Source: Escherichia coli
GTDB taxonomy: Bacteria > Pseudomonadota > Gammaproteobacteria > Enterobacterales > Enterobacteriaceae
DNA length: 64,000 bases
Strand: one strand, 5' to 3'
NCBI RefSeq assembly: GCF_044324785.1
Contig: NZ_CP172127.1
Each line of letters opens with the position of its first letter. Within the stretch, counting starts at the first letter, position 1. Positions 45,471 through 47,730 of the stretch are shown in pieces. The position numbers are program-made.

Positions 45471-47730
45471 ATAAATGAAGTGACTGTCCATCAGAAACAG
45501 TAACAACTATTTTCACCCGATCGTCCGGGGAAATATTTAAACTCAACTTCGTCAAAGCAATGGGTTGATTAGCAGGCAATGAGAGGGTCTTTTCTTGCTT
45601 CGTCTGACTTTGCCCTGAACTGCCTTCGCGCAGGGACAATATTTGTACTCTGCACAGACAAGATTGAGTAAGAGTGACTTCAGGAATAATGGTGTACATA
45701 TCCCCTTGCTGGGTCGTATTAAAGGTTATCTGACTGGAAAGTGCCGCAAGGAGTAATAACGCATTCATATTCTTCTCCCGAAAAAAAACAGGGCTTGCGC
45801 CCTGTTTCTTTAATACAGAGGATGTATTAGTACTGATGAGCGGTCGCGTTGTTACCAAAGCCAACCTGAGTGACGTTAACGCTGGAGTTAGATGCAGTCT
45901 GGTCAACAGCAGCACCGTTACCGCCACCGAACTGTTTAACAGTCATAGTAGAATCTTTACCATTCCACTGATCAAGAGTAGCGCTGTTGCCGAAACCACG
46001 CTGAGTCAGATCGATTGAGCTGTCATCAGAACCTTGGCCAACATCTGCGCCGTTACCGCCGCCGTGCTGGGTAATGGTCAGATCAGAGTTACGGGCGTCA
46101 GCTTGCAGAGCAAGAGCAGAGTTACCGCCACCGTACTGGTAAATGTTCAGCTCTGAATTCGGGCCGCTGTTATTACCGCCACCACCGTGGTTACCGCCGC
46201 CGCCGTACTGAGGAACAACACCTGCCAGAGCGCTACCGGAGAATACGATTGCTGCAATTGCTGCTACTTTTAAAAGTTTCATGTAAAACCCCCATCGGAT
46301 TGATTTAAAAGTCGAATGGAAATTAACGTTGTGTCACGCGAATAGCCATTTGCGACTGTCTCTGCACTACAATTGCCGTTTTTTGAGTACCATACTGTGT
46401 AATATTTGCTTTATTACCAGAACCTTTCTGGATAATCATCGCAGTATTACCATAAGCACCTTGCGAAATACTGGCATCGTTGGCATTGCCCGCCTGATCA
46501 ATATATGCAAGGTTATAATCTCCTGTCTGGTCAATCTTTGCCCGGTTGCTACTACCTTCTTGCGCAACAACCGCCAAAAGTTTTGAGCCTCCCTGCCGTA
46601 CCTGAGCACTATTATTAGTCCCAGCTTGACCAATTATGGCTGCCTGATTAAATGAAGACTTACTCAATTCATTTACCGCGAAGTTATATTCTGAATTAGC
46701 TAAATCATAACCTGCTGCGGCTGCAATCCCAGGCGCACCCAGTATTGTTAACATCATAAATAACAATTTGTTTTTCATGTTGTCACCCTGGACCTGGTCG
46801 TACATTTAAGAAATTAAATCATTTCAACTTGGTTGTTAACGCAACCTGTATTTTGTTAACGCTGCGTTACGATGGAAAGTATGTCTGCGGAAATATTTTT
46901 AATAACTCACCCGCGCGTTGTATTTTTCTTTTTTTGTTCATACCAAAGTATTAAAACCCACGTAAATACGCTGTTATCTACGCAAAAAAATATTTTGTTT
47001 TCTTTTAAATCTCCGTTTTCCGCAATCAAAAATCACCAGACAGCCATTCTTCTTGCCCGTCGCTGATTGCTGCGATATGTCTTGCGCACAAGCCGTGACA
47101 AACCTCGTCTTTTTGCAGTAAAAAATTGTCCACGGAGGTGTGAAGAAAAAACAAGAACGTTTTACATGACGAAAGCACTACACCGAAATATTTTTTATAT
47201 GCATTATTAGTAAGTTAGCACCATTTGTATGATTTTTTAAAATTGTGCAATAAAAACCAAATGTACAACTTTTCTATCATTTCTAAACTTAATAAAACCT
47301 TAAGATTAACATTTTAATATAACGAGTTACATTTAGTTACATGTTTAACACTTGATTTAAGATTTGTAATGGCTAGATTGAAATCAGATGTAATCCATTA
47401 GTTTTATATTTTACCCATTTAGGTCTGATTTATTACTACACACAGCAGTGCAACATCTGTCAGTACTTCTGGTGCTTCTATTTTAGAGGCAGCTGTCAGG
47501 TGTGCGATCAATAAAAAAAGCGGGGTTTCATCATGTTTAATGAAGTCCATAGTATTCATGGTCATACATTATTGTTGATCACTAAACCTTCTTTGCAGGC
47601 GACAGCTCTCTTGCAGCACCTTAAACAATCGCTGGCAATTACAGGAAAATTACATAATATTCAACGTTCTCTGGACGATATATCTCCAGGCTCTATTATT
47701 CTTCTGGATATGATGGAAGCGGATAAAAAG

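What the first reader, a model, noticed from the sequence alone, without database searches (positions are those of the whole stretch)
46779..47532. 754-bp AT-rich divergent curli control region
This is the longest intergenic region in the window and is strongly AT-rich with phased A/T tracts, consistent with the known csgD promoter hub that integrates many regulators and a long csgD 5' leader targeted by small RNAs. Any sequence difference from K-12 here would be relevant to curli and biofilm phenotype, but I cannot assess differences without a reference alignment.
Basis: established knowledge. Interest (0 to 1): 0.25.

Follow-up and report, generated by a model that had tools for sequence, protein, structure and literature searches.

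The report
Known curli csgB–csgD control region
This is the well-studied 754-bp regulatory spacer between the two curli (biofilm fibre) operons of E. coli, intact and collinear with K-12. It differs from K-12 by nine single-base changes, of which six are shared polymorphisms, one is shared but of unmeasured frequency, and two are rare lineage markers of probably small effect.

Summary
Window 46779-47532 is exactly the 754-bp spacer between csgB (- strand) and csgD (+ strand). At 34.2% GC it is the AT-richest 754-bp stretch of the window (window mean 50.4%).

It is the longest intergenic gap only if tRNA-Ser counts as a gene: 754 bp against 737 bp. "Phased" A/T tracts are not supported, because periodicity and modelled curvature do not exceed dinucleotide shuffles.

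Aligned to K-12 MG1655, the region has the same length, no indels and 9 SNPs. The sequence is identical to K-12 at:
- the OmpR/RstA box
- the MlrA palindrome
- the CsgD box at the csgB promoter
- the inferred -35/-10 hexamers
- the csgD leader from -108 onward (SL1, SL2, SD, OmrA/B and McaS targets)

Six SNPs are shared polymorphisms, present in 470 to 2,678 of 5,426 complete genomes. One could not be counted.

Two SNPs are rare, each found in 1 of 5,426 genomes. G>C lies at -209 from the csgD start site. G>T lies at +40 (-109 from the ATG), inside RprA pairing half-site Ia. The +40 change costs one predicted base pair, in a half-site that is individually dispensable.

Independent assemblies carry the identical haplotype, so the rare SNPs are real lineage markers. 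Verdict: already known, ordinary, low interest.

The parts
46779..47532 (.). Complete csgBAC-csgDEFG intergenic control region: 754 bp, 34.2% GC.
   Evidence: Bounded by the csgB ATG (46778, - strand) and the csgD ATG (47533, + strand). Aligns without gaps to K-12 L001 3198-3951 with 9 mismatches. Present in 5,371 of 5,426 complete E. coli genomes.
46323..46778 (-). csgB, the curli minor subunit and first gene of csgBAC.
   Evidence: ORF. 99.6% nt identity to K-12 csgB, with L60V and S98N. Annotated csgB in H1.
47533..48183 (+). csgD, the master regulator. It carries S19P, S52P, S110A and Y148F relative to K-12.
   Evidence: P19 and A110 are the common states. S52P and Y148F are absent from H1, TUM14771 and K-12. 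The exact protein is on record on 246 contigs.
46903..46913 (-). CsgD box CGGGTGAGTTA upstream of csgB.
47239..47272 (+). MlrA palindromic site, AAAATTGTGCA-N12-TGTACAACTTT, at -146..-113 from the csgD start site.
   Evidence: identical to K-12. PMC3913822 describes a 33-bp palindrome lying between the IHF and OmpR sites.
47326..47345 (+). OmpR/RstA activating box GTTACATTTAGTTACATGTT, at -59..-40.
   Evidence: identical to K-12. The homologous Salmonella D1 site is at about -51 (PMC13304067).
47352..47379 (+). csgD core promoter: -35 TTGATT (47352-47357), 16-nt spacer, -10 TAGATT (47374-47379).
   Evidence: Read from the sequence and placed from the published 148-nt leader (PMC3465796). Identical to K-12. 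Assignment of the hexamers is inference.
47385..47532 (+). csgD 148-nt 5' leader. Contains RprA site I (47414-47449), SL1 (47450-47505), and RprA site II with SL2 and the SD (from 47519).
   Evidence: Leader length and site coordinates come from PMC3465796 and PMC4152358. Rfam ES056 matches 47386-47477 at 115.3 bits. The only difference from K-12 is at 47424.
47424..47424 (+). Rare SNP G>T: -109 from the ATG, +40 from the start site. It lies inside RprA half-site Ia and one base 5' of the RcsB box at +41..+54.
   Evidence: The allele-specific 55-mer is found in 1 of 5,426 genomes. The RprA duplex is -37.4 kcal/mol in K-12 and -33.3 kcal/mol in the window allele. The change breaks one pair of the Rfam consensus 5' hairpin. 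Leader MFE is -42.7 against -41.5. Site coordinates are from PMC3465796 and PMC12388358.
47176..47176 (+). Rare SNP G>C at -209 from the csgD start site. It lies in the RcdA initial-binding zone (-308..-192) and just outside the H-NS footprint (-201..+28).
   Evidence: The allele-specific 55-mer is found in 1 of 5,426 genomes, the O169:H41 strain H1. Zone coordinates are from PMC3535384 and PMC12388358. No consensus motif was gained or lost.
47218..47218 (+). Common SNP T>G at -167, 21 nt upstream of the MlrA box and inside the H-NS footprint, in the zone where the IHF site is reported.
   Evidence: The allele is in 2,192 of 5,426 genomes. Position.
47305..47305 (+). Common SNP G>A at -80, immediately 3' of the perfect PmrA/BasR-type repeat CTTAATAAAACCTTAAG.
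   Evidence: The allele is in 2,678 of 5,426 genomes. The repeat itself is unchanged.
47024..47044 (+). Three linked SNPs (T>A at 47024, G>T at 47033, T>C at 47044) at -361 to -341, in the GC-richer centre of the spacer.
   Evidence: The haplotype is in 680 of 5,426 genomes. None of the consensus motifs scanned overlaps these three positions.
47143..47143 (+). SNP G>A at -242, in the RcdA zone.
   Evidence: The allele is in 470 of 5,426 genomes.
46935..46935 (+). SNP A>T, 157 nt upstream of the csgB ATG and about 22 nt beyond the CsgD box. It lengthens a homopolymer run from 6 to 7.
   Evidence: Shared with H1 and TUM14771. Its frequency could not be counted because the query was masked as low complexity.

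Best explanation
The region is the canonical divergent control region of the E. coli curli operons.

From it, csgD is transcribed rightwards from a start site at about 47385, with a 148-nt leader. csgBAC is transcribed leftwards under CsgD control. The AT-rich 200 bp upstream of the csgD start site is the platform on which H-NS, IHF, OmpR, MlrA, CpxR, RstA, BasR, RcdA and RcsB compete. The leader is the pairing target of OmrA/B, McaS, RprA, GcvB and RydC.

In this genome the region is intact and collinear with K-12, and the characterised core elements scanned are unchanged. It carries a natural lineage haplotype: six shared polymorphisms, one shared SNP of unmeasured frequency, and two rare derived SNPs at -209 and +40. 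I expect this haplotype to leave regulation essentially as in K-12, with at most a slight weakening of RprA pairing.

Shown here: identity, anatomy, sequence differences and allele frequencies. Taken from the literature: the binding and pairing coordinates. Inferred: the absence of a large functional effect.
For: - Gene order and coordinates match K-12.
- The spacer aligns gap-free at 98.8% identity with 9 SNPs.
- The OmpR/RstA box, MlrA palindrome, CsgD box and BasR-type repeat are identical to K-12. The leader is identical from -108 through the start codon.
- Rfam ES056 hits the leader at 115 bits.
- The lowest-GC 200 bp of the window (47185-47384) coincides with the published H-NS footprint at -201..+28 (PMC12388358).
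- Allele counts among 5,426 complete genomes are 2,678, 2,192, 680 and 470 for six SNPs, and 1 each for two SNPs.
- H1 differs from the window only at 47424.
- The haplotype is reproduced exactly in the independent assemblies GCA_054573775.1 and GCA_044084935.1.
- Divergence of the spacer from the nearest complete genome, N3, is 0.4%. That is no higher than the flanks, at 0.6-0.7%, so there is no sign of accelerated change.
- Deleting RprA half-site Ia alone did not relieve RprA repression (PMC3465796).
Against: - The +40 G>U change does remove one predicted G-C pair with RprA (4.1 kcal/mol of 37.4). It also weakens a small 5' hairpin.
- Single-base changes in this region can alter curli expression in Salmonella and in O157:H7 (PMC13304067, PMC11278976).
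- A 2026 preprint associates spacer polymorphisms with semi-constitutive rdar expression (10.64898/2026.04.22.719398).
- Exact E. coli footprints for IHF, CpxR, CRP and Cra could not be read, because Ogasawara 2010 and Jubelin 2005 are not held. Overlap of the -167, -80, -209 and -242 SNPs with those sites is therefore judged only from consensus scans and indirect statements.
- No expression data exist for this haplotype.
Confidence: 0.85

Rival explanations
1. Lineage-specific retuning of curli control. The two rare spacer SNPs (-209 G>C and +40 G>U in RprA site Ia, next to the distal RcsB box), together with the private CsgD substitutions S52P and Y148F, shift csgD expression or CsgD activity in this poorly sampled E. 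coli lineage. One possible route is loosened Rcs/RprA repression.
For: - Both SNPs are each found in only 1 of 5,426 complete genomes, yet they are fixed in independent assemblies of the lineage.
- The +40 change lowers predicted RprA duplex stability from -37.4 to -33.3 kcal/mol.
- It sits one base from the RcsB box at +41..+54 (PMC12388358).
- Y148 is otherwise invariant in an 11-sequence sample that includes Salmonella.
- S52 lies 7 residues from the phospho-acceptor D59 (PMC13304067).
- Single-base changes in this region are known to change phenotype (PMC11278976, PMC13304067).
Against: - Half-site Ia is individually dispensable for RprA control (PMC3465796).
- Pairing at Ia needs the RprA terminator hairpin to open, a cost that RNAduplex ignores (inference).
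- The number of rare SNPs (2 in 754 bp) fits the lineage's background divergence of 0.6-0.7% from its nearest complete genome.
- Position 52 varies naturally (S, T, A) and Y>F is conservative.
- No motif was gained or lost at -209.
Confidence: 0.12
2. The rare differences are sequencing or assembly errors in the window and not real alleles.
For: Each is almost absent from 5,426 complete genomes.
Against: Two independent public assemblies are 100% identical to the window over 3,851 bp and 2,420 bp, and both include 47424. The longer one also includes 47176. The linked CsgD variant is recorded on 246 contigs. TUM14771 and H1 each carry one of the two alleles on otherwise different haplotypes.
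Confidence: 0.01
3. The spacer hides an additional unannotated gene, either a small ORF or an independent sRNA, besides the two promoters and the leader.
For: Mechanical ORFs of 40-64 aa exist in the spacer. Rfam lists ES056 as an 'sRNA' at 47386-47477.
Against: ES056 begins one base after the position computed for the csgD start site (ATG minus the published 148-nt leader) and covers the first 92 nt of the leader. It is therefore best read as a 5' fragment of csgD mRNA; ladders of 5' fragments are reported in PMC3465796. No CDS is annotated in the spacer in K-12, H1 or TUM14771. Promoter-like hits are no more frequent than in shuffles (3 against 4.1).
Confidence: 0.02

Closest known systems
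E. coli K-12 MG1655 csgDEFG-csgBAC intergenic region (NC_000913.3 1103197-1103950)
   Same: Same flanking genes, same 754-bp length and no indels. The OmpR/RstA box, MlrA palindrome, CsgD box and inferred core promoter hexamers are identical, as is the leader from -108 to the ATG.
   Different: Nine substitutions: window 46935, 47024, 47033, 47044, 47143, 47176, 47218, 47305 and 47424. One falls in RprA half-site Ia. The others lie outside the motifs scanned.
Spacer haplotype of E. coli O169:H41 Res13-Lact-PER13-34 (NZ_CP062824.1)
   Same: 753 of 754 bases are identical, including the rare C at -209.
   Different: It has the common G at 47424. Its CsgD lacks S52P and Y148F. The surrounding 60 kb is only about 98.9% identical to the window.
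Serogroup- and host-associated csgD promoter types (PMC3874044; PMC5007776; bioRxiv 10.64898/2026.04.22.719398)
   Same: The same phenomenon: the 754-bp spacer carries lineage-specific SNP patterns, which have been used as markers and sometimes linked to rdar phenotype.
   Different: I could not see the figures of those papers, so I cannot say whether the -209 or +40 alleles were among the reported positions.
Salmonella csgD promoter mutations that change rdar expression (PMC11278976, PMC6611641)
   Same: Single-base changes in the homologous control region.
   Different: Those papers report phenotype-changing changes in the Salmonella csgD promoter; I did not extract their positions. Here the OmpR/RstA box and the inferred -35/-10 hexamers are unchanged from K-12, and no phenotype has been tested.

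Membership tests
E. coli csgBAC-csgDEFG intergenic control region | Lies between divergently oriented csgB and csgD, with csgA/csgC and csgE/F/G beyond them. | tested here: met
   ORFs and K-12 comparison; H1 annotation.
E. coli csgBAC-csgDEFG intergenic control region | 754-bp spacer collinear with the K-12 reference. | tested here: met
   Gap-free alignment, 745 of 754 bases identical.
E. coli csgBAC-csgDEFG intergenic control region | OmpR activating box about 50 bp upstream of the csgD start site. | tested here: met
   GTTACATTTAGTTACATGTT at -59..-40, identical to K-12. Binding itself was not tested.
E. coli csgBAC-csgDEFG intergenic control region | MlrA 33-bp palindrome upstream of the OmpR site. 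| tested here: met
   Located at 47239-47272 (-146..-113) and identical to K-12. Description from PMC3913822.
E. coli csgBAC-csgDEFG intergenic control region | CsgD box upstream of csgB. | tested here: met
   CGGGTGAGTTA at 46903-46913 on the - strand.
E. coli csgBAC-csgDEFG intergenic control region | 148-nt csgD leader with SL1, SL2 and the sRNA pairing sites. | tested here: met
   Sequence is identical to K-12 except at -109. The SL1 stem is recovered in the MFE fold of both alleles. Coordinates from PMC4152358 and PMC3465796.
E. coli csgBAC-csgDEFG intergenic control region | Actual regulator binding and sigma-S/OmpR/MlrA-dependent transcription. | not testable with these tools
   Needs footprinting or reporter assays.
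   Periodicity and wedge-model curvature do not exceed dinucleotide shuffles, although curvature is high relative to the rest of the window.
Rfam RF02752 (ES056 sRNA) | Covariance-model score above the gathering threshold. | tested here: met
   115.3 bits against 43, full length 1-92, at 47386-47477. One consensus pair is broken by the 47424 SNP.

The most novel reading that the evidence does not exclude
A poorly sampled E. coli lineage has fixed a small set of private changes in its curli master switch. No complete RefSeq genome is closer to it than 99.4%. The changes are a leader mutation in RprA site Ia next to the distal RcsB box, an upstream -209 change, and CsgD S52P and Y148F. Together these could loosen envelope-stress (Rcs/RprA) repression or alter CsgD activity, giving a lineage-specific biofilm phenotype.
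Probability: 0.1. Interest if true: 0.3.

Novelty: already known. Interest (0 to 1): 0.08.

Why it matters
It matters little beyond annotation. The region is among the best-characterised bacterial promoters, and this copy is intact, so the strain should be able to regulate curli normally at this locus.

The useful outputs are practical:
- A precise list of the nine differences from K-12, with population frequencies.
- The finding that two of them (47176 and 47424), together with CsgD S52P and Y148F, mark a lineage that is nearly absent from complete genomes. They could serve as typing markers.
- A small, cheap allelic-exchange test of RprA half-site Ia, if anyone wants to examine its function in a natural context.

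Tried and rejected
- The generic sigma-70 promoter scan found three sites against 4.1 expected and missed the real csgD promoter, so it is uninformative here.
- The allele-specific search for the 46935 SNP returned nothing because the T-rich query is masked as low complexity. Its frequency remains unknown beyond being shared with H1, TUM14771 and the 99.7% hits.
- Ogasawara 2010 and Jubelin 2005, the sources of the E. coli IHF, CpxR and OmpR footprints, are not held. Those scans give many weak IHF and CpxR matches and cannot be treated as sites.
- McaS and GcvB duplex predictions for the two leader alleles differ by 0.3 and 2.4 kcal/mol with shifting registers. I judged them not interpretable. 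The main McaS pairing block (ACUACACACAGCAGUGCA) is unchanged.
- I considered an unannotated ORF or sRNA in the spacer and rejected it. ES056 is the 5' part of the csgD mRNA, and the small ORFs are purely mechanical.
- I considered sequencing error and rejected it on the basis of identical independent assemblies.
- Polarity of the rare alleles is obvious from 5,400+ genomes, and the finding is ordinary.

Full report
**1. What is at the coordinates**

Window 46779-47532 is bounded on the left by the start codon of a minus-strand ORF and on the right by the ATG of a plus-strand ORF at 47533.
- The left ORF begins MKNKLLFMMLTILGAPGIAAAAGYDL and is CsgB.
- The right ORF begins MFNEVHSIHGHTLLLITK and is CsgD.
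- Beyond them lie csgA and csgC on one side and csgE, csgF and csgG on the other, exactly as in K-12 MG1655 and in the annotated genome NZ_CP062824.1.

The spacer is 754 bp, the same length as in K-12. The literature gives the same figure (bioRxiv 10.64898/2026.04.22.719398; PMC13304067).

**2. Is the observation more than chance?**

*AT-richness.* GC is 34.2% against 50.4% for the window. Every 754-bp stretch of the window with GC at or below that value overlaps this spacer. The lowest 200-bp GC of the whole 64 kb (22%) is at 47185-47384. That is -200 to -1 from the csgD start site, and it coincides with the published H-NS footprint at -201 to +28 (PMC12388358).

*"Longest intergenic region."* This is true only narrowly. 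The window carries a 180-bp x 3.4 tandem array after tRNA-Ser. The array stretches the tRNA-Ser/ycdU gap to 737 bp. The protein-free ghrA-ycdU stretch is about 1,058 bp. The next longest gap is rluC-rne at 572 bp.

*"Phased A/T tracts."* This could not be substantiated.
- There are 26 homopolymer A or T runs of at least 4 bases.
- AA/TT periodicity at 9.5-11.5 bp is reached by 77% of dinucleotide-preserving shuffles.
- A wedge-model curvature profile, with parameters from memory, is high relative to other parts of the window but not relative to shuffles of the same composition.
- Published statements that the region is intrinsically curved (PMC12713406, PMC13304067) are therefore compatible with composition alone, as far as these tests go.

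**3.

The alignment is gap-free with nine substitutions. Positions below are relative to a csgD start site at 47385, computed as the ATG minus the published 148-nt leader (PMC3465796, PMC4152358). The Rfam ES056 model matches from 47386.

| Window position | K-12 > window | Position | Genomes of 5,426 with the window allele |
|---|---|---|---|
| 46935 | A>T | 157 nt upstream of the csgB ATG | not counted (query masked) |
| 47024 | T>A | -361 | 680, as one haplotype with the next two |
| 47033 | G>T | -352 | as above |
| 47044 | T>C | -341 | as above |
| 47143 | G>A | -242 | 470 |
| 47176 | G>C | -209 | 1 |
| 47218 | T>G | -167 | 2,192 |
| 47305 | G>A | -80 | 2,678 |
| 47424 | G>T | +40 (-109 from the ATG) | 1 |

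The following elements are identical to K-12:
- the OmpR/RstA box GTTACATTTAGTTACATGTT (-59..-40)
- the MlrA palindrome (-146..-113)
- the CsgD box CGGGTGAGTTA upstream of csgB
- a perfect PmrA/BasR-type repeat (-97..-81)
- the inferred -35 and -10 hexamers
- the leader from -108 to the ATG, which holds SL1 (the OmrA/B target), the main McaS and RprA-Ib block, RprA site II, SL2 and the SD

At 98.8% identity the spacer is at least as conserved as the flanking coding genes. The corresponding figures are csgG 98.3%, csgE 98.5% and csgA 92.5%. That fits a constrained regulatory region.

**4. Population context**

I used 55-mers in which every 28-base seed covers the variable base, and counted carriers of the window alleles among 5,426 complete E. 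coli genomes. The counts are in the table above.
- The one genome with T at 47424 is TUM14771.
- The one genome with C at 47176 is the O169:H41 strain H1.
- H1 differs from the window only at 47424.

The window haplotype is thus a known minority haplotype, with at least 99% identity in 406 genomes, plus one or two rare derived bases.

These rare bases are not errors.
- The window's exact CsgD protein is on record on 246 contigs.
- Two independent assemblies carrying it, GCA_054573775.1 and GCA_044084935.1, are 100% identical to the window over 3,851 bp and 2,420 bp, spacer included.

The window's lineage is poorly represented among complete genomes. The best identity is 99.4% over 25 kb and 99.3% over 8 kb. 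Strain N3 is the nearest in both searches, and its spacer differs from the window's by only 0.4%. The control region has therefore not changed faster than its surroundings.

**5. What the two rare SNPs touch**

*The +40 (-109) base.*
- It lies inside RprA pairing site Ia (-119 to -108; PMC3465796).
- RNAduplex predicts the loss of one G-C pair, from -37.4 to -33.3 kcal/mol.
- The change also breaks one pair of a small 5' hairpin in the Rfam consensus and in the MFE fold, where the energy goes from -42.7 to -41.5 kcal/mol.
- On the DNA, it sits one base 5' of the distal RcsB box at +41..+54, within the RcsB footprint at -31..+54 (PMC12388358).
- Mika et al. showed that deleting Ia alone, or Ib alone, does not relieve RprA control because sites Ia, Ib and II are redundant (PMC3465796).
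- The predicted Ia pairing also uses the arms of RprA's own terminator hairpin. The predicted energy therefore overstates its contribution (inference).

*The -209 base.*
- It lies in the zone first occupied by RcdA (-308..-192; PMC3535384), just beyond the H-NS footprint.
- No consensus motif is gained or lost there.
- Deletion of rcdA had no effect on curli reporter expression in a recent systematic study (PMC12713406).

*Shared polymorphisms.* The -167 base falls where the IHF site is said to lie, upstream of the MlrA site (PMC3913822). The -80 base abuts the BasR-type repeat. Both window alleles are carried by 40-49% of E. coli genomes, so they are part of normal variation.

**6. How it works**

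Steps 1-3 come from the cited literature, not from tests done here.
1. csgD is transcribed from a weak sigma-S/sigma-70 promoter. It needs OmpR at about -50 and MlrA at about -130, and it is helped by IHF. It is silenced by H-NS spreading over the AT-rich -200..+28 segment, and by CpxR and RcsB.
2. The 148-nt leader integrates OmrA/B, McaS, RprA, GcvB and RydC.
3. CsgD then activates csgBAC through its box on the other side of the spacer.
4. All of these parts are present in this window with K-12 sequence. My best-supported reading (0.85) is therefore a fully functional, ordinary curli switch carrying a neutral or near-neutral lineage haplotype.

**7. Rivals**

- Lineage-specific retuning through the two rare SNPs and the private CsgD substitutions (0.12). 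This cannot be excluded without experiments, because single-base changes in this region can matter (PMC11278976, PMC13304067; bioRxiv 10.64898/2026.04.22.719398). However, the affected RprA half-site is redundant. The number of rare changes matches background divergence. [quoted passage not shown]
- Sequencing error. This is refuted.
- A hidden gene in the spacer. This is very unlikely, because ES056 is simply the 5' part of the csgD mRNA (PMC3465796).

**8. Novelty and verdict**

The region, its regulators, its leader and the existence of lineage-specific SNP patterns in it are all published (PMC5007776, PMC3874044, PMC4152358). This copy is a member by every sequence criterion I could test. 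Novelty is "already known" and interest is 0.08. The only slightly new facts are the two rare alleles and the CsgD S52P/Y148F variant, which mark an under-sampled lineage.

**9. Limits**

- Consensus motifs and curvature parameters were entered from memory.
- The frequency of the 46935 allele is unknown.
- sRNA sequences were taken from K-12, not from this strain.
- No phenotype data exist for this haplotype.

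Noticed in passing
window 47533-48183 (csgD), codons 52 and 148 (nt 47686 and 47975): CsgD carries S52P and Y148F, which K-12, H1 and TUM14771 all lack. S52 is 7 residues from the phospho-acceptor D59. Y148 is otherwise invariant in an 11-sequence sample that includes Salmonella. The exact protein is on 246 public contigs, so it is a real lineage variant.
   Followed up: partly
window 33658-35085: An insertion of about 1.43 kb of an IS3-family element between lpxL and mdtG, absent from the O169:H41 reference. orfA has HTH_28 and HTH_Tnp_1 domains (34513-35043, - strand). orfB has the rve integrase core (33686-34408, - strand).
   Followed up: partly
window 53147-53767: A tandem array of a 180-bp unit, 3.4 copies, 97% matches. 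It starts inside the 3' end of tRNA-Ser(GGA) (53078-53165). H1 has only 188 bp between the tRNA and ycdU; here the gap is 737 bp. It looks like reiterated tRNA-3'-end or attachment-site-like units.
   Followed up: partly
window ~54900-64000 (downstream of ycdU): A cluster annotated in the collinear H1 genome as ACP, beta-ketoacyl synthases, FabZ-like dehydratase, ACP S-malonyltransferase, a LolA-like lipoprotein-sorting protein and an ABC transporter. It resembles the aryl-polyene-type lipid cluster found next to tRNA-Ser in some E. coli; K-12 was not examined at this site.
   Followed up: no
whole window: No complete RefSeq E. coli genome is closer than 99.4% (window 1-25000) or 99.3% (44000-52000), and only 41 genomes reach 99% over the first 25 kb. 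The window comes from a lineage that is under-represented among complete genomes, although draft assemblies match exactly around csgD.
   Followed up: partly
window 45827-46282 (csgA): csgA is only 92.5% identical to K-12 at the nucleotide level (34 differences) but has just 3 amino-acid changes. It is far more divergent than its neighbours csgB (99.6%) and the spacer (98.8%), which suggests an old allelic class or recombination at csgA.
   Followed up: no
window 46831-46846: A perfect 6-bp-stem inverted repeat, GGTTGT-TAAC-GCAACC, followed by a T-rich run. It lies 53-68 nt upstream of the csgB ATG and is identical in K-12. On the csgB strand it could form a hairpin if that stretch is transcribed; no role was looked for.
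   Followed up: no
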